A stretch of 64,000 nt of DNA from Alphaproteobacteria bacterium UBA3650 (GTDB taxonomy: Bacteria > Pseudomonadota > Alphaproteobacteria > CAAHEQ01 > UBA3637): positions 2,376-66,375 of the forward strand of contig DFKH01000083.1 in assembly GCA_002373815.1 (NCBI GenBank), in the 5' to 3' direction. The notes beneath the pieces are model-generated. The model was not told the DNA's origin. It saw only the letters and a program-made list of their open reading frames with translations, and searched no databases. A program made the position numbers and the translations under genes. How positions within the stretch are numbered: position 1 is the first letter of the stretch; each line of letters begins with the position of its first letter. Positions 1-8,782 of the stretch are shown one piece after another.

Positions 1-772
1 TTTTCAGTCAGACATCATTAAGTTAAATGAAGCTGACAAAGGTCGCTTAGGTTCTTCTGTAACAGCATTTTCATTTTTACAAAAATTAAATTATTTGATT
101 AAGGCTGGAATTGAAATAAAATCTTTTTCTTCCATTTTAACAAATGTTAATACCTCATCTACAATGCATCTTCCTACTCCACAATTGATGTTTATAGATC
201 AATTAACTCGCGAACTCGAAAAGAGGCCTGACTTACTAGCATCTGTTGTAGAAGAAGTACAAAAAGTTGATCTTGGAATTTCAAACTTGACTCCCTTCAC
301 AGTAAAGCCAAATAATAATTTACAACCTCAACCAGATTTGAAATTATTACTTGCTGAACATAAAGATGGACATTCTACTGTTCGTTTACCATTATTACAA
401 GAGTCAGCAGGCACAGTTAATTATATTATTCTATTTGCTAAAATTAGAGATATTTTAACAACAGGCGGTATTTTAATTGCAGATGAATTAGAAAATAGTT
501 TACATACAGATTTAGTCGAAAGAATTTTGACTTTATTTATAAGAAAAGAGTCAAATCCTAACAATGCACAGATTGTATTTTCTACTCACAATCCTTGGTT
601 TTTACAATTTTTAAGGAAAACTCAAATTTTTATTGTAGAAAAAGATCATGCGCAAGCTACTGATATGTACAGGTTGGATGAAATAAAAGAAGTCCGCAAT
701 GATGAGAACTACTTTATCAAGTATATCAATGGCGAATATGATGGTAGGCCCAAAATCAAAGAGTATTTATAA
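1..772 (+). CDS. 5'-truncated AAA_21/AAA_15-type ATPase (AbiLi-like), C-terminal part; ORF is open to the window start
   Basis: Frame is open from nt 2. Motif ILIADELENSLH (Walker B/D-loop-like) and QIVFSTHNPWFL (H-loop region) are typical of AAA_21 abortive-infection ATPases. Stop overlaps the next start (ATGA). Confidence 0.6.
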   Translation, partial: FQSDIIKLNEADKGRLGSSVTAFSFLQKLNYLIKAGIEIKSFSSILTNVNTSSTMHLPTPQLMFIDQLTRELEKRPDLLASVVEEVQKVDLGISNLTPFTVKPNNNLQPQPDLKLLLAEHKDGHSTVRLPLLQESAGTVNYIILFAKIRDILTTGGILIADELENSLHTDLVERILTLFIRKESNPNNAQIVFSTHNPWFLQFLRKTQIFIVEKDHAQATDMYRLDEIKEVRNDENYFIKYINGEYDGRPKIKEYL

Positions 773-1392
773 TGAAGAAACGCTATAGGAAAAAGACATG
801 CTATTATATATATGAAGGAAAGACAGAAGGTTATTTCCTTCATTATTTAGCATCTCTGTTTCCCAATGCTTCTGTAAAAGAAGTTTCTCCTTTCTCTGGT
901 CGAGGAGGAACGGCCGACTCTATTGTTTTAAATGCATTATCTTGTCAATATTATGATAGATTATTTGTTCTTTTGGATGAAGATTTTGAATCTAAAGCTG
1001 CCGAATATCGCATTTCAAATGAGACTCTAAGAAAATTAGAACAACAATGGAATATTGATCCAGGAGCACTCTCTGAAGTTAAATATAGAGACCTCCATAA
1101 ATATAATATAAATCATAGAAAACCTGTTATCATTGTCTCAAATCCTCAAGCAATAGAAGGATTATTATTACAAATTTTAGGTTATTCTAAACAAAAATTA
1201 GAAAATAAAACAACAGATGAGCTTAAAAGCATGATTCAAAACTTTCTCAAATCAATAACAGACACTTATCCTTGTTATACAACCCCTGAGGCGTTATTGC
1301 ATTTATTTAAACAAAAAATGTCATTAGCCATATTACAAGAAAAGCGCAAAATAATTCCAGAACTAGATACACTTTTAACTTTTTTTGAATAA
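772..1392 (+). CDS. RloB-like protein (AbiLii-like partner of the ATPase)
   Basis: N-terminal CYYIYEGKTEGYF resembles the RloB/Toprim-like signature (vCEGekTE..YF). Translationally coupled to the upstream ATPase. The ATPase + RloB pair is the known AbiL architecture. Confidence 0.55.
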   Translation: MKKRYRKKTCYYIYEGKTEGYFLHYLASLFPNASVKEVSPFSGRGGTADSIVLNALSCQYYDRLFVLLDEDFESKAAEYRISNETLRKLEQQWNIDPGALSEVKYRDLHKYNINHRKPVIIVSNPQAIEGLLLQILGYSKQKLENKTTDELKSMIQNFLKSITDTYPCYTTPEALLHLFKQKMSLAILQEKRKIIPELDTLLTFFE

Positions 1393-1417
1393 GCTTGTAA
1401 TTTATTCGAATTAATTT

Positions 1418-1990
1418 TTATATTTTTTTAATTGAAAAGAGTGGCCTTTTTGCCAATCGAAATAATTTTGTATATACGCTTAAATTTTTCTTATTATTAT
1501 CCACATGATGTGACAGCACTGAAAACTCTGAAAAATTTACCCCAAGTTCTACCAATTTTTGCAAACACAAGCTTTGTTTTGTCAGACAAGGCATTTGTCC
1601 AATATGTTGCTTTAATCTGTTCTCTAAATTCTGAGATGATCCAACAAACAATGTTGTAAATTCATGTTTGCTATTCAAATTATTCAAAACATCCTCGTTC
1701 AAGCAAAGCATAGAATCTACACCATAAATCTTTTTCCAAACTTCTCGCAATAAAGGTCTATATTTTAATACAACATCAGTGGACATCATGACCATATAAA
1801 CAACATTTTGATTCATATATCGATTTGGAATAACCACAGGCTCATCTATTTTTTGATCCATATAAAAGCCTTGATATCCTTGCGCGCGTCCTACCGCTTT
1901 GATTTCATCCATTGTTTGTGCTATTGGGTGAATTTGCGTTTGAAAAAATACTGTTGTCATTTCATCCATCGTCATACTAACTCCTTTCAT
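1418..1990 (-). CDS. hypothetical protein (island-encoded, no recognisable domain)
   Basis: 190 aa ORF in a very AT-rich region. Preceded in sense orientation by copy A of the recurring TATAAT-containing motif. Confidence 0.4.
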   Translation of the reverse strand: MKGVSMTMDEMTTVFFQTQIHPIAQTMDEIKAVGRAQGYQGFYMDQKIDEPVVIPNRYMNQNVVYMVMMSTDVVLKYRPLLREVWKKIYGVDSMLCLNEDVLNNLNSKHEFTTLFVGSSQNLENRLKQHIGQMPCLTKQSLCLQKLVELGVNFSEFSVLSHHVDNNKKNLSVYTKLFRLAKRPLFSIKKI

Positions 1991-2030
1991 TTAACTCAAC
2001 GAATCGCAGTCTAGCACAATTCAAAACTTT

Positions 2031-2060
2031 TGTGTCTTTTATAAAATTATAGGCGTGAGG
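2031..2060 (-). promoter_or_regulatory. Repeat copy A: TGTGTCTTTTATAAAATTATAGGCGTGAGG (reads CCTCACGCCTATAATTTTATAAAAGACACA on the minus strand; contains TATAAT and TATAAA)
   Basis: 25-nt exact match to 7855-7879. Shares the TTATAAAAGACAC core with copies at 5065-5090 and 6764-6784. Lies 28-70 nt upstream of the minus-strand ORF start at 1990. Confidence 0.45.
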
Positions 2061-2073
2061 ATAGTCTAAATCT

Positions 2074-2709
2074 TTAACTTATTTTTGGCAATCTCTTATC
2101 CTTAAAGTGTTTTTCTACCAATTTTTTGATTTCTTCATCTGGCAAGGACTCTATAAAACTTTTATAAAACCAGTTGCCAGATGGATGACCAAATATACAC
2201 ACATTTACCTTTTCAGGCATGCCTTTCTCTAATTCTTGGTAAAAATAAGAAAATTTTTCAAAATCTTTTCCTAATAGCCACAATTTAATCGATGAATTTT
2301 TTCTTAAGAGATTTACTATAAATTCAGCCATAATTTCTTGAGATTCTTTCTCTTTATCTAACTTGACTGTCCTAGCAGTGGACACAAAACTTTTATTCCA
2401 AAAAATAATCTCATGTTTGCAGGCAAGCTTTGTTAAAAAATCTTTTATATGTTGTGTTCGTCCACAAAAATATTCCTGTTTCTTTAATTCAGTATTCCCA
2501 GGATTATCACCAACAATAATATATTTGATATTTGCAATATTATCAATTTGTTTGGATAAATTTTCTAAAAATGGATTTGCATCTTCTCTTTTCTCATCTT
2601 GTGGATTAGGATTAGGCACCACATTTTCTTCTTGGCTATTATTCATCCAATCCAAAATTTTGTCTTTCAAATCTTCTACTAATGGGTGTAATGTCATATT
2701 TTTCTCCAA
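2074..2709 (-). CDS. uracil-DNA glycosylase superfamily-like protein (divergent family-4-like motifs)
   Basis: GDNPGNTE...EYFCGRTQ resembles UDG motif A (GEAPG..E..G.PFvG). CIFGHPSGNWF resembles motif B (HPSP). Divergently arranged with an XRE regulator. Confidence 0.45.
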   Translation of the reverse strand: MEKNMTLHPLVEDLKDKILDWMNNSQEENVVPNPNPQDEKREDANPFLENLSKQIDNIANIKYIIVGDNPGNTELKKQEYFCGRTQHIKDFLTKLACKHEIIFWNKSFVSTARTVKLDKEKESQEIMAEFIVNLLRKNSSIKLWLLGKDFEKFSYFYQELEKGMPEKVNVCIFGHPSGNWFYKSFIESLPDEEIKKLVEKHFKDKRLPKIS

Positions 2710-2865
2710 TTAAGTAAATTTCAAGCGAATTAAACTGCATTTTTTGCCACAAGTCAAGAATTACATTGCTTATTTTATTACAAAATCAGAATTCTAAAGG
2801 ATGTTTTATACGAAACAAATGACATATATTTTTATGCAACAGTTAATATATTTCAGGAAAACAAG

Positions 2866-3237
2866 ATGAAATTACAAATTGGACAAACTATCAAAGCAAT
2901 GCGCAAACAGCGTAAAATGAGTCAAGAGCAATTGGCCGAAGCGACACAATGTAGTTGTAAAACAATCAGTAATATTGAAAATGGTCACATTCCAGAGCTG
3001 AAACAAGTAGTCAATATTTGTGATGTTTTGAAAATTAGTATGGATGATCTGTTTAATTTACACTATAAACCATCTAATGATACAGAATCATCTGATGGAT
3101 ATTTTACAAATAGAGTACATTCGGATACAGCTTTAACTACAGAACAAATTCAAGATTTGGAAACTATCACTCAAAAATTGCCAACTTTAACAGCAGATCA
3201 ACTGAAAGCACTCCGCTTACTCATCAATTTATGGTGA
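2866..3237 (+). CDS. XRE-family helix-turn-helix transcriptional regulator
   Basis: N-terminal QEQLAEATQCSCKTISNIENG is a classic HTH_3 motif. 123 aa. Confidence 0.8.
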   Translation: MKLQIGQTIKAMRKQRKMSQEQLAEATQCSCKTISNIENGHIPELKQVVNICDVLKISMDDLFNLHYKPSNDTESSDGYFTNRVHSDTALTTEQIQDLETITQKLPTLTADQLKALRLLINLW

Positions 3238-3687
3238 GTTTATATTAAAAAATATAATATTAAAAAAACGATATATATCTATGGGGACATTGCCAAGGTG
3301 TCTTTCATTTTGGCAAATCTCTAATCTCAGATGTGGACTTTATAAGGCTGATTCAGTTTGAATCGGCAATTTGAGTTAGTATTCAGTTAAAAATTATCCC
3401 ATATTTTAATTTTATAAATGAGAAGTAAAAAACGAATCGGCATTAAAGGGAAAAAAGTGGATCAAAAATTGAAAATTTTACCCCCAGAATGGGCAAAATG
3501 GGGGTAAATAAAATTATAATAAAAATTATATATATCACAAAAACAGCATAAATTCTTTTATTATCATATAGTTATACAAAAACATCATTTTATTTTTATA
3601 TAAATTGACATTATATATTAATAAAGTACAACTATGCCATCAAAACACATGGTGTGTTTTGAATTAACTGTCAGGAAGGAGAAAAAA

Positions 3688-4191
3688 ATGACAGAAACTA
3701 ATATGGTTTTGAATGTTGTACCATCAAACAATTTCACCTCAAATGTATCCAATGGATTACCATCCGATGTTCAACAATTAATGGATATCTTAAATCGATC
3801 TTACTCTGGAGATTGGCGCAAATCAAAGGAAAAAACTCGAGTTTTAAACAGTATTTGGGTAAAATTGTTTAAAGGCGAACAAGAGAAACTATCCGTAACG
3901 GTTAATCAATACGCAAATATGCTTCCATTTTCAATTGAGGCAAATTTGAAAAATGTGGCTTTGTTTTTTGAACAATTACAAATGGGGGATCGCATTGCGC
4001 CTTATCTCTATGCGCGTATCTGTGAGGAACTGAATCTGAGTAGAGCAAGCAAATTGATGCCCAAAGAAAAGTTGTTCCAACTTTACCTAGATAAAGTTGT
4101 GATTAAAATTCTGAAAAAATTGTTAGAGTATTACATTTCAGAATTGAACTTCAAACAACGCATACACGGAAGCGAACTTGGGTACAATTAA
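3688..4191 (+). CDS. hypothetical protein
   Basis: ATG at 3688 is preceded by GGAAGGAG RBS. The ORF track start at 3634 is probably an extension. No domain recognised. Confidence 0.4.
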   Translation: MTETNMVLNVVPSNNFTSNVSNGLPSDVQQLMDILNRSYSGDWRKSKEKTRVLNSIWVKLFKGEQEKLSVTVNQYANMLPFSIEANLKNVALFFEQLQMGDRIAPYLYARICEELNLSRASKLMPKEKLFQLYLDKVVIKILKKLLEYYISELNFKQRIHGSELGYN

Positions 4192-5018
4192 TACCCAGCA
4201 GTGACGCAATGGATTGAGCCACCATATTTTGCAATTGTGGTGGCATTCAATCCAACAACAGGCTTTGAAGTATGGCTCTGAATAATTTTCAGAGCTACCT
4301 CATCTGTTGACAAATTGTAGGTTGGCACGATGACAACTTTGCTGGTCTGTAGGAAATTGACATAGATACCATTGGCACTATACCATCCATAGGTTGTTTC
4401 ATCAGAAGGATGATAAGGTAGAGAAATCAATTTTATCTGTGGACATTGTTTTTGAATCAACTTATGTACTTTTTGTAAATATTCAGAATTGGGGGCATTA
4501 ATACATAAAGTGTTATCATCTAAAAATTGAACAATACCATCAGCATGTGCTGTGCGCTCATAAGGTTCTGGAGGCAACCAAACCATTTTTTGAATATCAA
4601 ATACTTCATGTAAAATAAGATTCATTTGATCTTCAGAAAGTTTGTTGAGCTCTAATGGTTTGCGTGTGGCAATACCTATGCCAGAACTATTGGTCACCAG
4701 ATTACCACCATCAAATCGCAAAGGTAATGGCACAGCAATTTTATCAAAAAAGGCGAGACACTCTTTTTGAACTTTAGCACTTTTATCAAAGTGTTGATAT
4801 GGCGGTTGATAAGTCAAAGGGATGTATCCTCTGTCTGTAAAAAATGGAGCAAAATCACGAATCCAAATGTCAGATACAGCTAATGAAATAATGGTATGTC
4901 CATACTGTTTGAGCATACTGGACAACTGATCATAAAATTGGCTATACCCAATATATTGGTGCTCAATTTTGGTGGATGGTTTGACTAAAAAAATAGTATT
5001 TGGGTTGTTGATAAACAT
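4188..5018 (-). CDS. agmatine deiminase / Porphyromonas-type peptidylarginine deiminase family protein (short form)
   Basis: C-terminal GGSIHCVTAG matches the catalytic Cys motif of the amidinotransferase-fold PAD_porph/agmatine deiminase family (GG.IHC.TQ). Also has IWIRDFAP. 276 aa is shorter than typical AguA. Confidence 0.55.
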   Translation of the reverse strand: MFINNPNTIFLVKPSTKIEHQYIGYSQFYDQLSSMLKQYGHTIISLAVSDIWIRDFAPFFTDRGYIPLTYQPPYQHFDKSAKVQKECLAFFDKIAVPLPLRFDGGNLVTNSSGIGIATRKPLELNKLSEDQMNLILHEVFDIQKMVWLPPEPYERTAHADGIVQFLDDNTLCINAPNSEYLQKVHKLIQKQCPQIKLISLPYHPSDETTYGWYSANGIYVNFLQTSKVVIVPTYNLSTDEVALKIIQSHTSKPVVGLNATTIAKYGGSIHCVTAGY

Positions 5019-5064
5019 GGTACTCCTTTTTTCTAACTGGACACTATTTTAGCACAAAAAGAAG

Positions 5065-5090
5065 TCTTTGTGTCTTTTATAAGAAATAGG
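5065..5090 (-). promoter_or_regulatory. Repeat copy C: TCTTTGTGTCTTTTATAAGAAATAGG
   Basis: Shares the GTGTCTTTTATAA core with copy A. Its reverse complement is identical over 21 nt to 6764-6784. Lies 47-72 nt upstream of the deiminase-like gene start (5018). Confidence 0.4.
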
Positions 5091-5215
5091 AATTTTTAAC
5101 CTATCTTATTGTAATACAAAGAAAAATTAAAAAAGTTATCCTGCGGTTGTATATAAAAAATATAAATAAAAAAAATATGATAAATACAAACACAACACTA
5201 AAAAAAGGATAATTT

Positions 5216-6271
5216 ATGATTGAAACATTGAAGAGTAAAAAAACAGGCTTACCAAGATATCGAGCAAGAATTAGGGTAAAAAATGTCATAGATCAGTCTA
5301 AGACATTTAAGTACTATGATGATGCAAGTGCTTGGTACCACAAAATGATGGCTGACATTGAAAATTTTTCTAAATGTAATGGTTATGGTGCTAGTCGTGC
5401 CACTTTAGCAGAATGTGTGGATAAGTATTTAGCAGAAAACTATATCAAACCATCTGAGGCTTATGTTCTAAAATGGTGGAAACAACGTTTGGGCAACAAA
5501 AGATTGAGTGCTATTACACCAAATGATTTGTTGACTCATCGCTTAGAGTTATTGCAAACTGAGTACAAAATTGGACATGTATTTAAAATGAGGCAACCAG
5601 CCACAATCAACAAATACATTATTATTTTAAGTGGACTGATGACAACTGCCTGCAAAGAGTGGCAGATTATTTCAAGCAATCCTTGTCAACAAATCAAAAA
5701 ATTAAAGGAACCAAAAGGCAGAACACGCTATTTAAGTCATGATGAAATTCAAATTTTATTAAAGGCATGTGCTGAATCTAAAATGACTTATTTGTACCCA
5801 ATTGTTGTTTTGGCCTTGAGTACAGGAGCAAGACGCTCTGAAATTGTTAATTTAAAATGGCGGAACGTGTTATTGGATGAACATAGGCTTGTCTTTGAAC
5901 AAACAAAAAATGGGGACACGCGCAGTGTGCCTTTATGCGATAAAGCATTGGAAATTTTAACTCAACTTAAAAATGAACATCCACATACACAAGATTTTGA
6001 GCTGGTATTTCAAGGAAAAATAAAGGGACAACCAGTAGATTTTAAAAAGGCATGGCATACCGCGTTATCTGCTGCAGGCATTCAAAATTTTAGATTTCAC
6101 GATTTAAGACATACAGCAGCAACACATTTGTTACGCACTGGAATTGGCTTGATTCCACTTTCAGAAATTTTAGGTCATCACACCATGGATATGGTAAAAC
6201 GCTATGCGCATGTGATGACTGATTACAAAGAAACCTATGTTGCGCAAATGAATCAAAGTATTTTTCAATAA
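5216..6271 (+). CDS. int: tyrosine-type site-specific integrase (phage integrase family)
   Basis: C-terminal HDLRHTAATHLLRTG...LGHHTMDMVKRYAHV carries the R..H..R..Y catalytic box. Located next to a tRNA gene. Confidence 0.9.
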   Translation: MIETLKSKKTGLPRYRARIRVKNVIDQSKTFKYYDDASAWYHKMMADIENFSKCNGYGASRATLAECVDKYLAENYIKPSEAYVLKWWKQRLGNKRLSAITPNDLLTHRLELLQTEYKIGHVFKMRQPATINKYIIILSGLMTTACKEWQIISSNPCQQIKKLKEPKGRTRYLSHDEIQILLKACAESKMTYLYPIVVLALSTGARRSEIVNLKWRNVLLDEHRLVFEQTKNGDTRSVPLCDKALEILTQLKNEHPHTQDFELVFQGKIKGQPVDFKKAWHTALSAAGIQNFRFHDLRHTAATHLLRTGIGLIPLSEILGHHTMDMVKRYAHVMTDYKETYVAQMNQSIFQ

Positions 6272-6280
6272 GGAGGCAAC

Positions 6281-6739
6281 ATGAAAGAATATGACAAGAA
6301 AGTACGCGCAGAAATGCAAAAGTGGATGTCTGTGCAAGAAGCAAATTACAACATAGGGATTACCGTTGTCTTTAATAAGGATAATATTACAGAACAAGAG
6401 GCTTGGAGATACCTCAAAAATGCTTTTGGATATTATTATCGCAAGACACTTGGAAAAAAATGGTACTTAAAAAAGGACAAACAGTATGCGTTCATTGGTT
6501 GCAAAGAAATGGGCAAATATGGCGTCAATTTGCATTATCATCTTATGTTGGCTTTGGTACCTTATTCTTTTTGTGCCTTTATAAAAATGAATCGGCTCTT
6601 AAATAAGGGGTTGCGTAAATATATTTTGTCTGGCCATGTATTTTGTTGGCCTTTAATGGAAAAAGGATGGGGAGCTTACTTATCAAAAGAGGTTAAGCCG
6701 AACACAATCAGCCTTTTTGCACAAAAAGATTTGTTTTAA
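6281..6739 (+). CDS. small HUH-endonuclease-like (Rep-like) protein
   Basis: Three HUH motifs in canonical order: motif 1-like GITVVF, motif 2 LHYHLML (H-u-H-u-u-u), motif 3-like YLSKE (Y..K). Lies directly downstream of the integrase. Confidence 0.4.
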   Translation: MKEYDKKVRAEMQKWMSVQEANYNIGITVVFNKDNITEQEAWRYLKNAFGYYYRKTLGKKWYLKKDKQYAFIGCKEMGKYGVNLHYHLMLALVPYSFCAFIKMNRLLNKGLRKYILSGHVFCWPLMEKGWGAYLSKEVKPNTISLFAQKDLF

Positions 6740-6763
6740 ATCAATAAGTTATTATTTTATACT

Positions 6764-6784
6764 CCTATTTCTTATAAAAGACAC
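6764..6784 (+). promoter_or_regulatory. Repeat copy D: CCTATTTCTTATAAAAGACAC (inverted relative to copies A/C/B, sense relative to the downstream + strand gene)
   Basis: 21-nt exact reverse-complement match to 5067-5087. Lies 52 nt upstream of the 6836 start. Confidence 0.4.
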
Positions 6785-6835
6785 TTTTGTTTTGGAAAAT
6801 GCTACAATGCGATTCGTAAAAGAAAGGAGCAAATT

Positions 6836-7687
6836 ATGGAATTATTAAAAGATATGTGTCAACGCATGCAAAATGAATTGAAAGGCGCAAAAGTAACAGA
6901 TTTAAAAAATCAGCAAGAAACAATCGCAACAGGTTATCCTAATTTGGATGAGGTTCTAGGTGGTGGCTTACCAGTTGGGAAATTGATTGTTCTTTCTCAC
7001 CACAGAAAAGAACGAATTTACCAATCATACTTTTTTAAGCAGATTATTTGTTTAATTTTAAATCGTTTTCACAAAGAAAACTCAGGCAACAAAAAGCAAA
7101 ACAACCTTGCCTATTTTAGTTATTTACACCCTGAATTTTTTGCACTTGAGTTACTTAAAATTAAAGGAAAGGATAATTGGTTCACTGGATTGACAGAGGC
7201 AACCAACCAATCACAGATAAACTATCCAATTTATCTGCATCAACTTGATAAGACAGAGAATCTACCTGACATTATGGAGCAAACTGTTCACAAATTAGGT
7301 TGTTCCATTGTTTGTTTAGATATGGCTGATATTTGGGTAACACACAATGGCAAAAGTATTCTGGACACTTTAATTCAACTACAAGAACTTGCAAGACAAC
7401 TCAATATTTGTATTTTTGTGTCATTATATAAAGAAGAACACGACTTAAACCACGAGCAAGATATCGCAGATATTGTGTTATCATTAGATGATTTTTGTGC
7501 TCTGCATAGCGACTTAGATGATTATCCAGTCTTTTCCGTGACAGTTTATAACAATATTCGACATAAATGGTATGATCAAAGGTTATGGGCTGAAAACTGC
7601 TATTTTCAAATAAATGACAAATATATTCTACCTTGCCCCCAGCAGTATTATGATAAATTGTTGGAAAAATATATTGATGATGAGTAA
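6836..7687 (+). CDS. DnaB-helicase C-terminal-domain-like (RecA-fold) protein lacking a Walker A motif
   Basis: TGYPNLDEVLGGGLPVGKLIVL resembles the DnaB/RadA TG.p.LD...gGl..g.l.ii segment, but GxxxxGK[ST] is absent. The later LIQLQELARQLNICIFVSLYKEEHDLNHEQDIADIVLSLD resembles the DnaB H4 region. Confidence 0.45.
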   Translation: MELLKDMCQRMQNELKGAKVTDLKNQQETIATGYPNLDEVLGGGLPVGKLIVLSHHRKERIYQSYFFKQIICLILNRFHKENSGNKKQNNLAYFSYLHPEFFALELLKIKGKDNWFTGLTEATNQSQINYPIYLHQLDKTENLPDIMEQTVHKLGCSIVCLDMADIWVTHNGKSILDTLIQLQELARQLNICIFVSLYKEEHDLNHEQDIADIVLSLDDFCALHSDLDDYPVFSVTVYNNIRHKWYDQRLWAENCYFQINDKYILPCPQQYYDKLLEKYIDDE

Positions 7688-7703
7688 GCGGAGCCAATAA
7701 AAA

Positions 7704-7779
<76 letters not shown>

Positions 7780-7851
7780 AACAGAGCTATTATGCCATAA
7801 ATACAAAGAAAAATCAAGGTGTTTTTAAGTTACCGTTTTTTACTGGATTCA

Positions 7852-7881
7852 ACTGTCTTTTATAAAATTATAGGCGTGAAG
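7852..7881 (-). promoter_or_regulatory. Repeat copy B: CTGTCTTTTATAAAATTATAGGCGTGAAGG (putative tRNA-Thr promoter region; TATAAT on the minus strand)
   Basis: 25-nt exact match to 2034-2058. Lies 73-102 nt upstream of the tRNA 5' end. Confidence 0.45.
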
Positions 7882-8055
7882 GTAAAAATAAAGGACATTT
7901 TGAGGACCATTTTTATAAAGTTTTATTAAAAGAATAAGCCTTTCAAATCAAACAATTAAGAACAAATTATGAGTACTTTTCAAAAGACTTGACTTTATCC
8001 ATCAAATCCTATAAACTGGCTTCATTGTTGAGGTGTCAAGAGATGTGAGCAACGC

Positions 8056-8101
8056 ATTCGTAATCAGTAGGTCGTGTGTTCGAGTCACATTCTCGGCACC
8101 A
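8056..8101 (+). repeat. Inverted copy of the tRNA-Thr 3' half (46 nt identical including CCA; weaker similarity extends ~10 nt further 5')
   Basis: ATTCGTAATCAGTAGGTCGTGTGTTCGAGTCACATTCTCGGCACCA is identical to the 3' 46 nt of the tRNA-Thr, which is encoded on the opposite strand 280 bp away. Confidence 0.75.
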
Positions 8102-8116
8102 TTTTTTGGGGGTAGT

Positions 8117-8782
8117 ATGCATTCATATGTTCTCAGTTTTTCTTCTGAACTGTATCCATTGACATTAGAAGAAGTGGCTGCTTTACCAGATGCAACAATT
8201 CCTTTTACTGCAAAGGAAGAAGAAGTTATTATTTTATTAGGCGGCAATACCCTTATCAAAGAAGATTGTTTATTAGCTGGACGTTCAAAAATTAAACAAG
8301 CTATTCAGAAAAAAAACAAAACAGTTTCTGTGCGTATTGCTTTTCCTGTTCCAGCGCATATCGGGGCATTATTTGCCTTAATCAAAAAAGTGCGTTATCG
8401 TTGGAAAACAAATGGGACATGTGTTTATCATCTTGACCCCCATTTTTTACGAGATCATGGTTTGGAACGTTTTAAACGGACGGCAGACAATGCATATCAA
8501 TTTTCCAATCATCGTTGGAAAAAAAGCCCTGCCCAGCAACAGGAGCGATATCACAAATTGTTGGAAAATATGTCTCATGGCTATGACGATTCTTTTCCTA
8601 TGCGTGTTATGCTATGTCGTACAAACGGCTCAAAAGATTCTTTAGATGATGGTCATCATCGTTTAGGCATTTGCATTGACAACCATATTCCTCTTGTCGC
8701 GATTCGTTTTTGCTATGCCTCCTCATGGCAAGCTGTACGTCAGATTTTTTCGTTTTCCAAACGCTATTATACAGATAAATAA
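8117..8782 (+). CDS. ParB/sulfiredoxin-like nuclease-domain protein (putative)
   Basis: DGHHRLGICIDNHIPLVAIRF contains the DGHHR-type motif of ParB-like nuclease domains. Start placed at the ATG after the tRNA fragment; the ORF track's 8033 start runs through the fragment. Confidence 0.35.
   Translation: MHSYVLSFSSELYPLTLEEVAALPDATIPFTAKEEEVIILLGGNTLIKEDCLLAGRSKIKQAIQKKNKTVSVRIAFPVPAHIGALFALIKKVRYRWKTNGTCVYHLDPHFLRDHGLERFKRTADNAYQFSNHRWKKSPAQQQERYHKLLENMSHGYDDSFPMRVMLCRTNGSKDSLDDGHHRLGICIDNHIPLVAIRFCYASSWQAVRQIFSFSKRYYTDK

What the first reader, a model, noticed from the sequence alone, without database searches (positions are those of the whole stretch)
1418..3237. Uncharacterised UDG-superfamily gene plus orphan 190-aa gene, divergent from an XRE regulator: candidate new defence or DNA-modification-sensing module
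The 211-aa protein at 2074-2709 has degenerate family-4-like UDG motifs (GDNPG...EYFCGRT; FGHPSG) but is not a canonical Ung. It sits between an AbiL-like system and a divergently transcribed XRE repressor-like gene, a classic context for accessory defence cargo. The adjacent 190-aa ORF (1418-1990) has no recognisable domain and its own copy of the island promoter motif. DNA glycosylases acting on modified phage bases are a recently recognised defence principle. A UDG-fold enzyme of unknown specificity here is a plausible new instance.
Basis: inference. Interest (0 to 1): 0.65.

Follow-up and report, generated by a model that had tools for sequence, protein, structure and literature searches.

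The report
Island-borne uracil-DNA-glycosylase-like cargo gene
A small mobile island in an uncultured rumen bacterium carries, in a swappable slot beside a repressor-like gene, a rare and unstudied relative of the uracil-removing DNA repair enzymes; relatives elsewhere often sit beside anti-virus genes, so it is a reasonable but untested candidate for a virus-defence enzyme.

Summary
2074-2697(-) encodes a 207-aa protein (true start ATG 2697, not TTG 2709). It passes Pfam's UDG threshold, models confidently (pLDDT 82), and matches only UDG-superfamily structures. Its motifs (GDNPG..E, YF.G, NK[ST], HPS) fit none of families 1-6 or UdgX. It has no Fe-S cysteines and is not Brig1-like. The family is rare: 51 clusters among 1.8 billion representatives.

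The gene occupies an exchangeable slot (2058-2737). A conserved promoter, divergent from the XRE gene, drives that slot. The slot lies inside a low-GC tRNA-Thr island that also carries AbiL. A sister island fills the slot with two membrane proteins plus a paralogous UDG.

Relatives elsewhere lie directly after McrBC/AbiV or a type II restriction-modification pair, or beside HigBA, AbiE/reverse transcriptases, or WYL regulators. Others sit in housekeeping-like surroundings.

The 185-aa ORF (1418-1975) is a real gene with its own island promoter motif. It is not a conserved partner of the UDG, and its GIY-YIG resemblance covers only 21 residues. A pentein-fold (PAD_porph-like) gene at 4188-5018 is the more consistent companion.

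Best reading: an active glycosylase cargo gene, probably defensive. Its substrate is unknown, and an invariant Glu hints at plain uracil. Nothing here was tested experimentally.

The parts
2074..2697 (-). UDG-superfamily gene, 207 aa. It belongs to a rare uncharacterised clade with motifs GDNPG..E, YF.G, NK[ST] and HPS.
   Evidence: Pfam UDG above the gathering score. AF2 pLDDT 82 and only UDG-superfamily Foldseek hits. Invariant residues. Start at ATG 2697 supported by the RBS and homologues. dN/dS 0.15-0.20.
2058..2737 (.). Exchangeable cargo segment. In the sister island L024 it is replaced by 2.36 kb encoding 233-aa and 296-aa membrane proteins plus a paralogous UDG.
   Evidence: blastn homology with L024 runs through 1-2057 and 2738-7688 at 89% and breaks between these points. 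L024 ORFs are listed.
2729..2757 (-). Sigma-70-type promoter for the cargo slot (TTGACT, 17 nt, TTTAAT), divergent from the XRE gene.
   Evidence: The -35 element and spacing are conserved in the window, L001, L024 and L006, although the downstream cargo differs. Sequence read. Function is inferred, not shown.
2866..3237 (+). XRE-family HTH regulator, 123 aa, divergent from the cargo slot.
   Evidence: HTH_3 6e-13. PADLOC HTH_VI, control-protein and capH-like hits. dN/dS 0.04. 96% identical in L024, where the cargo differs.
1418..1975 (-). 185-aa conserved ORF of unknown function. It belongs to the island backbone and is not a UDG partner. It carries a 21-residue GIY-YIG-like half motif, LFVGSSQNLExRLKQH.
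   Evidence: Relatives at 57-78% identity, dN/dS 0.11-0.14. GIY-YIG hits are below threshold. The AF2 model is unusable at pLDDT 56.
2032..2044 (-). Island motif TTATAAAAGACAC upstream of the 185-aa ORF. It is followed by TGC-TAGACT, an extended -10-like element.
   Evidence: Four copies, at 2032, 5070, 6772 and 7853 (the last with one mismatch), against 0.21 expected. Shared architecture shown by repeats D4, I2 and I5.
4188..5018 (-). PAD_porph-like pentein-fold enzyme, 276 aa. It is the recurrent companion of this UDG clade and has its own copy of the island motif at 5070-5082.
   Evidence: Pfam 1e-30. It scores 55 bits against the 382-bit agmatine deiminase cut-off. WxRD, HxDG and GGSxHC are invariant. 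It is present in all island variants and forms a PAD-UDG-WYL run in L015.
1..1392 (+). AbiL system: AbiLi (C-terminal part, 1-772, cut by the window edge) and AbiLii (772-1392). This is separate cargo at the island end.
   Evidence: PADLOC AbiLi 1.1e-41 and AbiLii 4.5e-5. The full 402-aa AbiLi is seen in L021. AbiL is absent from L001 and L006.
5216..7779 (.). Island backbone: tyrosine integrase (5216-6271), Rep-like 152 aa (6281-6739), 283-aa RecA-like protein (6836-7687) and tRNA-Thr(CGT) (7704-7779, minus strand).
   Evidence: Pfam results. tRNA found by ARAGORN and Rfam. GC is 30-34% here against about 36-41% in the rest of the window. Synteny with L006 and L024.

Best explanation
The 207-aa protein is most likely a catalytically active, monofunctional DNA glycosylase from an undescribed clade of the UDG superfamily.

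Proposed mechanism, by analogy with the characterised families (inferred):
- It flips a uracil-type pyrimidine out of DNA.
- F77 stacks on the flipped base.
- N101, at the end of strand 2, reads the N3/O4 edge of the base.
- H171 of the HPS motif stabilises the leaving base.
- N65 of GDNPG positions the attacking water.
- The invariant E70 narrows the pocket around C5.
- The product is an abasic site.

Genomic setting (shown):
- The gene is cargo in a dedicated slot of an approximately 8.7-kb integrative island at tRNA-Thr.
- It is transcribed from a conserved promoter that faces the XRE gene.

Proposed role (inferred):
- The XRE protein probably represses that promoter.
- The most likely role is anti-phage or anti-invader. 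The enzyme would excise a base that is abundant in incoming DNA, either uracil or a close derivative. The resulting abasic sites would block replication, as shown for Brig1, Brig2 and Brig3.
- The 185-aa ORF is an island backbone gene, not part of the mechanism.
For: Fold and motifs:
- Pfam UDG scores above its cut-off.
- The AF2 model has pLDDT 82 and pTM 0.83.
- The top 50 PDB hits and the top viral hits are all UDG-superfamily proteins.
- The profile aligns G63-D64-N65-P66-G67..E70..F77.G79 onto Thermus UDGa G40-E41-G42-P43-G44..E47..F54.G56.
- These residues, plus N101, K102 and H171, are invariant or nearly so in 69 sequences.
- The roles of the equivalent residues in UDGa and DR0022 come from PMC5387724 and PMC9796141.
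- dN/dS is 0.15-0.20.

Accessory nature:
- There are only 51 clusters at E<=1e-3 among 1.84 billion representatives.
- Nine relatives were confirmed in a pattern-limited scan of one genome per 185,579 species.
- The gene lies in low-GC island DNA.
- The slot exchange is seen in L024, and tandem paralogues occur in L006 and L028.

Defence-type neighbours of homologues:
- AbiL in the window.
- AbiV, a McrB-like ATPase and McrC directly upstream and co-directional in L029.
- A type II methyltransferase plus a Bpu10I-like restriction enzyme in L028.
- HigB/HigA in L035.
- Two reverse transcriptases plus AbiEi/AbiEii in L045.
- Toxin-antitoxin pairs in L047.
- An IetA-like ATPase and a WYL regulator in L015.
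- WYL/WCX regulators in at least four independent locus groups, counting L019/L020/L027/L009 as one.

Precedent:
- UDG-fold enzymes Brig1, Brig2 and Brig3 act as single-gene defences (PMC11078745; bioRxiv 2025.10.29.685425; bioRxiv 2026.02.25.707755).
Against: - No experiment supports any activity.
- No PADLOC model hits the protein, and there is no meaningful NCBIfam hit.
- It is not related to Brig1 beyond the superfamily level: hhalign probability 0.6%.
- Several homologues lie in housekeeping-like surroundings, namely L016, L044 and L046.
- WYL regulators also control DNA-damage regulons.
- The invariant Glu gate and Asn suggest ordinary uracil, which is the classic repair substrate.
- The neighbourhood tally covers about 15 loci and has no background control.
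- The gene or a paralogue is present in every variant of this island family. It could therefore serve the island itself rather than host defence.
Confidence: 0.5

Rival explanations
1. The protein is a back-up uracil or deaminated-base repair glycosylase carried by mobile elements. It would remove uracil from host or island DNA, for example from single-stranded replication intermediates of the Rep-encoding island. Damage-sensing regulators (XRE, WYL) would induce it. It would have no role against phages.
For: - The uracil-type pocket residues are conserved: the Glu gate E70, N101, F77 and H171.
- WYL regulators, which in other bacteria drive DNA-damage responses (own knowledge), flank the gene in several lineages.
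- Some contexts look like housekeeping regions.
- The island encodes a Rep-like protein.
- A UDG of this family is present in all four island variants.
Against: - The distribution is extremely sporadic, with no vertical conservation.
- Paralogues occur in tandem and the cassette is exchanged.
- Homologues repeatedly sit immediately next to restriction, Abi and toxin-antitoxin genes.
Confidence: 0.28
2. The PAD_porph-like enzyme and the UDG work as a pair. The Cys-hydrolase would first convert or strip a guanidino or amidino-type group on a base or its decoration. The glycosylase would then excise the exposed base. This is the logic shown for BapA plus Brig3.
For: - PAD-UDG adjacency occurs in two distant settings. 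One is the island family, where UDG identity is 42-86% and PAD identity is 53-97%. The other is L015, where PAD, UDG and WYL are co-directional with a 28-nt gap between PAD and UDG.
- In L015 both proteins have diverged by a similar amount: 34% identity for PAD and 36% for UDG.
- The PAD-like protein keeps its catalytic motifs but is far from true agmatine deiminases.
- BapA-Brig3 provides a precedent.
Against: - There are only two independent contexts.
- All other UDG relatives lack a PAD neighbour.
- In the window the two genes are 1.5 kb apart, are separated by two genes on the other strand, and have different promoters.
- No guanidino-bearing DNA base is known to me.
Confidence: 0.12
3. 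The UDG and the adjacent 185-aa ORF form a two-gene module, with a glycosylase followed by a GIY-YIG-type nuclease that cuts at the abasic or modified site.
For: - The two genes are adjacent and on the same strand in the window, L001 and L005.
- The motif LFVGSSQNLExRLKQH resembles the YIG..R..H half of GIY-YIG. Supporting scores: Pfam 0.003-0.005, TIGR01453 1.4e-4, SLX1 1.6, and hhalign against I-TevI at E 0.0012 and probability 19%.
Against: - All GIY-YIG hits are below threshold and cover only about 21 residues.
- The 'GIY' tyrosine position varies (Cys, Tyr or His). By ungapped manual alignment to I-TevI, the catalytic Glu position is an invariant Tyr (alignment by eye).
- The ORF has its own promoter motif.
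- It persists when the UDG gene is replaced in L024.
- It is missing next to the UDG in L006, L015 and all distant loci.
Confidence: 0.06
4. The protein is a non-catalytic UDG-fold DNA-binding protein, or one that forms a covalent link with DNA. It would serve the island's own replication, integration or regulation.
For: - A UDG-family gene is present in every island variant.
- UDG-like domains without a known glycosylase role exist fused to phage family-A polymerases (hits 9qhs and BFVD PolA proteins).
Against: - All catalytic-motif positions are invariant across 69 sequences.
- Most relatives are not on this type of island.
Confidence: 0.04

Closest known systems
Family 4 uracil-DNA glycosylase (UDGa; Thermus thermophilus 1UI0, Sulfolobus tokodaii 4ZBY)
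   Same: - It gives the best sequence-profile match (E 9e-4) and the best structural match (E 7e-6).
- Motif 1 has the same layout, G-x-x-P-G-x-x-E, followed by (P/Y)F-x-G-x-x-G.
- The Glu gate, the stacking Phe, the Asn after strand 2 and the His-Pro motif 2 are all present.
   Different: - Motif 1 has the doublet D-N instead of E-G/A.
- There are no conserved cysteines, so no 4Fe-4S cluster.
- Nine residues after N101, where UDGa has the water-positioning Asn N89, this family has an invariant Thr (T110). This assumes no indel; only motif 1 was aligned by a tool.
- Identity is only 14-18% and TM-score about 0.5.
- There is an N-terminal helical extension of about 55 residues.
Families 2 and 3 (MUG/TDG, SMUG1)
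   Same: - Asn occupies the third position of motif 1 (G-x-N-P-G), which positions the water in MUG/TDG.
- There is no Fe-S cluster.
- SMUG1 and TDG are among the structural hits.
   Different: - There is no sequence-level match.
- Motif 2 is HPS, unlike the MUG/TDG motif.
- The Glu gate is a family-4 feature.
Brig1, Brig2 and Brig3 (UDG-fold anti-phage glycosylases)
   Same: - UDG superfamily fold.
- A single small gene.
- Sporadic distribution, AT-rich mobile or defence-island settings, and neighbours such as restriction systems.
- Brig3 has an accessory hydrolase, BapA, which offers a possible parallel to the PAD-like gene.
   Different: - The protein is not homologous to Brig1 at family level: hhalign probability 0.6%.
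- Brig1 has GLNPG, a Glu rather than an Asn at the base-reading position, and no His in motif 2.
- No anti-phage activity has been shown for this protein.
Cargo hotspots of integrative islands and phage satellites (own knowledge: P4/P2-type defence hotspots)
   Same: - A conserved backbone (integrase, Rep, regulator) carries a defined slot whose content differs between otherwise 89%-identical islands.
- A second slot holds AbiL.
   Different: - The slot always contains some member of the same UDG family rather than unrelated systems (4 of 4 variants).
- No capsid-hijacking genes were recognised.

Membership tests
UDG superfamily (Pfam PF03167) | Profile HMM score above the curated gathering threshold | tested here: met
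   28.8 bits against a cut-off of 24.3, E 1.4e-6, residues 60-179. Most relatives carry a precomputed PF03167 hit.
UDG superfamily (Pfam PF03167) | Alpha/beta fold with a four-stranded parallel sheet, structurally similar to solved UDGs | tested here: met
UDG superfamily (Pfam PF03167) | Three catalytic motifs in place: G-x-x-P after strand 1, Asn after strand 2, and His-Pro after strand 4 | tested here: met
   G63-D-N-P66, N101 and H171-P172 are invariant or at least 97% conserved in 69 sequences.
Family 4 UDGa | Motif 1 is GE(G/A)PG | tested here: not met
   The motif is GDNPG, and it is invariant in the family.
Family 4 UDGa | Four cysteine ligands of a 4Fe-4S cluster (own knowledge of the family) | tested here: not met
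   No column is conserved for Cys. The three partly Cys columns are Leu, Ile and Met in the window protein.
Family 4 UDGa | A Glu in motif 1 (E47) forms a tight uracil pocket | tested here: met
   E70 aligns with E47 and is present in 69 of 69 sequences. The role of E47 is taken from PMC5387724, and the A50E result from PMC9796141.
Family 1 UNG | Motifs GQDPYH and HPSPLS; match to UNG models | tested here: not met
   No NCBIfam UNG hit. phmmer against PDB finds no UNG. Motif 1 differs.
Brig1 family | Sequence or profile homology to Brig1 (sequence taken from the paper's supplement) | tested here: not met
   hhalign probability 0.6% with only 14 columns of motif 1 aligned. BLASTP E 0.21.
Brig2 / Brig3 families | Sequence or structural homology to Brig2 or Brig3 | not testable with these tools
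   The sequences are not in the held text or supplements. No such entry appears among the PDB hits.
Known defence systems (PADLOC-DB 2.0) | Match to any defence-protein model | tested here: not met
   Zero families for the UDG, the 185-aa ORF and the PAD-like protein.
GIY-YIG nuclease (for the 185-aa ORF) | Profile score above threshold; conserved Tyr (GIY), Tyr (YIG), Arg, and catalytic Glu | tested here: inconclusive
   Pfam scores are 18.1 and 17.5 bits against cut-offs of 22.4 and 22.6. TIGR01453 scores 22 against 56. hhalign against I-TevI gives probability 19% over 21 columns. The Arg and His are conserved, the first Tyr position varies, and no acidic residue is conserved where the Glu is expected. 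The model is too poor to judge the fold.
Agmatine deiminase (for the PAD-like neighbour) | Equivalog model cut-off | tested here: not met
   55 bits against 382 for TIGR03380. Pfam PAD_porph superfamily membership is met at 1e-30.
AbiL (neighbouring genes) | Matches to AbiLi and AbiLii models as an adjacent pair | tested here: met
   AbiLi 1.1e-41 and AbiLii 4.5e-5. The full-length pair is seen in L021 and L024.

The most novel reading that the evidence does not exclude
The PAD_porph-like Cys-hydrolase and this UDG clade form a previously unseen two-enzyme DNA-targeting system. The pentein-fold enzyme would chemically convert a base or base decoration in DNA by hydrolysing an amidine or guanidine-type group. 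It might even deiminate a normal base in invading DNA. The glycosylase would then excise the product. This would be a bacterial counterpart of 'deaminate, then excise' antiviral restriction, regulated by XRE or WYL proteins.
Probability: 0.1. Interest if true: 0.85.

Novelty: new variant of a known kind. Interest (0 to 1): 0.5.

Why it matters
UDG-fold enzymes have only recently been recognised as stand-alone anti-phage effectors (Brig1-3). Each new clade has revealed a different target base.

This clade is distinct at the motif level. It combines a family-4 scaffold without an Fe-S cluster with a family-2/3-type Asn in motif 1. It is rare and repeatedly sits next to restriction, Abi and toxin-antitoxin genes.

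If it is defensive, it would add a new specificity. If it excises plain uracil, it would suggest a defence aimed at uracil-containing or dUTP-loaded phage DNA. Such an enzyme would probably be insensitive to phage Ugi/p56-type inhibitors, which target family 1 (own knowledge).

The island also gives a clean natural example of a regulator-controlled cargo slot.

If the enzyme is only a repair glycosylase, it still defines a new UDG family for enzymology and possibly for uracil-detection tools.

Tried and rejected
- **Structure of the 185-aa ORF.** Only three homologues could be submitted for prediction. The model had pLDDT 56, and Foldseek returned nothing below E 0.1. The fold remains unresolved.
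- **Phage or plasmid origin.** No relative of the UDG was found in INPHARED phages, PLSDB plasmids or IMG/VR.
- **Brig1 membership.** Rejected by hhalign and BLASTP.
- **Brig2 and Brig3.** Their sequences could not be obtained.
- **The 31-nt direct repeat (2033-2063 / 7854-7884) as attachment sites for a smaller element.** Rejected, because homology between island variants continues past it at the same identity. The tRNA fragments bound a larger unit.
- **Conserved AAA-UDG-WYL trio.** The ATPases of L009 and L019 are orthologous. That of L015 is unrelated. This is therefore lineage synteny, not a general three-gene system.
- **Literature on PAD/agmatine deiminase in defence.** Nothing relevant was found.
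- **Known RNA elements.** An Rfam scan of 1-8300 found only the tRNA.
Full report
**What is there.** Window 1-7779 has lower GC (30-34%) than the rest of the window (about 36-41%) and ends at a tRNA-Thr(CGT) gene at 7704-7779 on the minus strand. The genes in this segment are:

| Coordinates | Strand | Product |
|---|---|---|
| 1-772 | + | AbiLi, cut by the window edge |
| 772-1392 | + | AbiLii |
| 2074-2709 | - | UDG-like ORF |
| 2866-3237 | + | XRE-type HTH gene |
| 3634-4191 | + | conserved 185-aa ORF |
| 4188-5018 | - | PAD_porph-like gene |
| 5216-6271 | + | tyrosine integrase |
| 6281-6739 | + | Rep-like 152-aa gene |
| 6836-7687 | + | 283-aa RecA-like gene |

An identical copy of the locus lies on a sheep-rumen metagenome contig. 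The closest island relative in a genome bin is labelled an uncultured alphaproteobacterium.

**Gene models.** The UDG-like gene most likely starts at ATG 2697, giving 207 aa. The TTG at 2709 overlaps a GGAG ribosome-binding site, and the database homologues start at the ATG. The neighbouring ORF likewise starts at ATG 1975, giving 185 aa. Both genes are under purifying selection, with dN/dS 0.11-0.20 against relatives. Both are therefore real genes.

**The protein is a UDG-superfamily member of an undescribed clade.**
- Pfam UDG is passed at 28.8 bits against a cut-off of 24.3.
- With a 69-sequence alignment, AlphaFold2 gives pLDDT 82 and pTM 0.83. The model has a four-stranded parallel sheet.
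- Foldseek against the PDB returns only UDG-superfamily structures among the top 50. These include family 4, SMUG1, TDG, UNG, UdgX and the UDG-like domain of a phage polymerase. The best E-value is 7e-6 and TM-scores are only 0.4-0.55.
- The viral structure library gives the same picture.
- At sequence level, the family profile matches Thermus UDGa at E 9e-4. The alignment pairs GDNPGxxE...YFxG with GEGPGEEE...PFVG.
- Across 69 relatives, I60, D64, N65, P66, G67, E70, G79, K102, T110, L113, G143 and H171 are invariant. G63, N101, T107 and F149 are at least 95% conserved, F77 84%, and P172 and S173 about 85%.
- Against the published motif definitions (PMC5387724, PMC9796141, PMC10776899), the combination GDNP / N-K-[TS] / HPS fits none of families 1-6 or UdgX.
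- No cysteine column is conserved, so the Fe-S cluster of families 4 and 5 is absent.
- Motif 1 combines a family-4 layout, including the Glu equivalent to E47, with an Asn where families 2 and 3 have their water-positioning Asn and family 1 has its catalytic Asp.
- Nine residues after N101, where UDGa has its water-positioning Asn (N89), this family has an invariant Thr. This assumes no insertion or deletion between the two positions.
- The enzyme is not Brig1-like: hhalign probability 0.6%.

**Rarity.**
- A full HMMER pass over 1.84 billion cluster representatives finds 51 clusters at E<=1e-3 and only 3 at E<=1e-30.
- A profile search of 5.8 billion sequences finds 140 proteins. Most are unnamed, and a few are labelled 'uracil-DNA glycosylase family protein' in Flavobacteriia.
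- A pattern-limited scan of one genome per 185,579 species confirmed nine relatives.
- None occurs in phage, plasmid or IMG/VR collections.

**The island and the cargo slot.** Four variants of the same island family were recovered: the window (= L021), L001-L005, L024 and L006.
- All four share the integrase, the PAD-like gene, the XRE gene and at least one UDG-family gene; the Rep-like gene is seen wherever the contig reaches that far (L001-L004 end inside the integrase gene).
- The window and L024 are 89% identical across 1-2057 and 2738-7688. Between these points, the 680-bp UDG cassette is replaced in L024 by 2.36 kb. That insert encodes two predicted membrane proteins and a 225-aa paralogous UDG that is about 27% identical.
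- L006 carries both UDG types, with a fragment of the same accessory protein between them.
- The right-hand boundary of the exchange falls inside a promoter (TTGACT, 17 nt, TTTAAT at 2757-2729). This promoter is conserved in all four variants and faces the XRE gene.
- AbiL occupies a second variable position at the island end. It is present in the window and L024 and absent from L001 and L006.
- A 13-mer, TTATAAAAGACAC, occurs four times in the window, all within the island region, against 0.21 expected. The copies lie at a similar distance and in the same orientation upstream of the 185-aa ORF, the PAD-like gene and the 283-aa gene, and about 75-85 nt upstream of the tRNA. In the three protein-gene copies it is followed by a TGC-extended -10-like element.
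- The UDG gene does not have this motif.

**The 185-aa ORF is not the UDG's partner.**
- It has its own promoter motif.
- It stays in place when the UDG is exchanged (L024).
- It is absent in L006, L015 and all distant loci.
- Its only similarity to anything known is a 21-residue stretch, LFVGSSQNLExRLKQH, that resembles the YIG-Arg-His half of GIY-YIG nucleases.
- The supporting hits are all below threshold: Pfam E 0.003-0.005, TIGR01453 at 1.4e-4, SLX1 at 1.6, and hhalign against I-TevI at probability 19%.
- The position of the first catalytic Tyr varies (Cys, Tyr or His). By ungapped manual alignment to I-TevI, the expected catalytic Glu position holds an invariant Tyr.
- The structure model is unusable.

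**Recurrent companions.**
- A PAD_porph-like protein accompanies the UDG in every island variant.
- In the unrelated contig L015 it lies immediately upstream and co-directional. A WYL-WCX regulator overlaps the UDG stop, and an IetA-like double AAA ATPase follows.
- In L015, PAD identity (34%) and UDG identity (36%) to the window proteins are similar.
- The PAD-like protein keeps the WxRD, HxDG and GGSxHC motifs. It scores 55 bits against the 382-bit cut-off for agmatine deiminase.
- WYL or WCX regulators flank UDG relatives in L015, L019/L020/L027, L009, L007/L045 and L040.

**Neighbourhoods of more distant relatives.**

| Locus | Neighbouring genes |
|---|---|
| L029 | AbiV, McrB-like AAA_5, McrC, then the UDG homologue; all co-directional, 23-nt gap |
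| L028 | N6_N4 methyltransferase plus Bpu10I-type endonuclease, then two tandem UDG paralogues |
| L035 | HigB/HigA directly upstream |
| L045 | Two reverse transcriptases, a DnaB-like protein and AbiEi/AbiEii |
| L047 | Gp49/HTH and ParDE pairs |
| L012 | An IS110 transposase |
| L010 | DUF932 and an SSB-like ORF (by eye) |
| L033 | An SPFH/SHOCT protein |
| L016, L044, L046 | Ordinary chromosomal surroundings |

This is a small, uncontrolled sample. The proportion of restriction, Abi and toxin-antitoxin neighbours is nevertheless high.

**Interpretation.** What is shown: a UDG fold, intact and invariant catalytic motifs, purifying selection, an accessory and mobile distribution, and a regulator-linked exchangeable slot. 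What is inferred: that the enzyme is active, that it flips a uracil-type base, and that it serves defence.
- Published mutagenesis shows that E47 of UDGa shapes a tight uracil pocket. Introducing a Glu at the same position of DR0022 (A50E) abolishes 5-hydroxymethyluracil excision while raising uracil excision.
- By homology, the invariant E70 argues for plain uracil rather than a bulky 5-substituted base.
- It does not weaken a defensive role as such. Uracil-rich incoming DNA is a conceivable target. A non-family-1 enzyme would be expected to escape Ugi-type inhibitors (own knowledge).
- The main rival is an accessory repair glycosylase induced by damage-sensing regulators.
- A third, more novel possibility is cooperation with the PAD-like hydrolase, by analogy with BapA-Brig3.

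**Verdict.** The UDG is a credible candidate defence glycosylase of a new clade. The proposed two-gene module with the 185-aa ORF is not supported. The substrate and biological role remain to be tested.

Noticed in passing
window 7699-7779 and 8047-8106; L021 8353-8382; L001 3328-3370; L006 640-677 and 8374-8449: The complete tRNA-Thr(CGT) gene on the minus strand is followed 288 nt later by an inverted 60-nt copy of its 3' part, 97% complementary. An inverted copy of its 5' half lies beyond the other end of the island. The two fragments overlap at about tRNA positions 22-38 (the anticodon stem-loop), which is a likely attachment core. In L006 the fragment and the full gene are in direct orientation instead. 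This may mean that the island split the chromosomal tRNA gene and carries its own replacement copy, or that it has been inverted.
   Followed up: partly
window 2033-2063 and 7854-7884: A 31-nt direct repeat, 94% identical. One copy lies at the junction between the UDG cassette and the promoter region of the 185-aa ORF. The other lies about 75-105 nt upstream of the tRNA-Thr gene. It contains a perfect TATAAT on the minus strand and overlaps the island 13-mer motif.
   Followed up: partly
L001-L004 (XRE gene, e.g. L001 1414-1781): Four independent metagenome assemblies carry the same frameshift in the XRE gene. Residues 1-84 and 85-123 are in different frames, and the called product is 89 aa. 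These variants also lack the ORF equivalent to window 3634-4191. The cargo slot may be de-repressed in them.
   Followed up: no
window 4188-5018 (-): A short (276-aa) pentein-fold PAD_porph-like protein with intact Cys/His/Asp motifs. It is far from true agmatine deiminases. It is conserved in all island variants and lies in an operon-like run with the UDG in L015. Relatives at 27% identity occur in large Bacteroides phages (DAC19 and others).
   Followed up: partly
L024 7343-9649; L006 6711-8032: An alternative content of the cargo slot. It comprises two predicted membrane-anchored proteins (233 and 296 aa; no family hits) followed by a second type of UDG-family protein ending in ...ELGKNRAQEYFDI. 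L006 has a 160-aa fragment of the 296-aa protein between its two UDG paralogues.
   Followed up: partly
L029 1900-6675; L028 230-5007: UDG-family homologues lie directly downstream of an AbiV and McrBC gene run, and downstream of a type II restriction-modification pair. In L028 there are two tandem paralogues, of 279 and 378 aa.
   Followed up: partly
window 3634-4191 (+) and 3238-3633: A conserved 185-aa ORF with no family hit, 56-70% identical in L006 and L024 and deleted in L001. It is preceded by a 400-bp AT-rich non-coding stretch with terminator-like hairpins at 3219-3239, 3347-3367 and 3475-3499.
   Followed up: no
window 6281-7687: A probable replication module of the island. It comprises a 152-aa protein with a weak Rep (REP_ORF2-G2P) match and a 283-aa protein whose N-terminus matches RecA-like/KaiC-type ATPase models (PAXNEB 2e-7). 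L024 has an extra 715-aa gene between this module and the tRNA.
   Followed up: no
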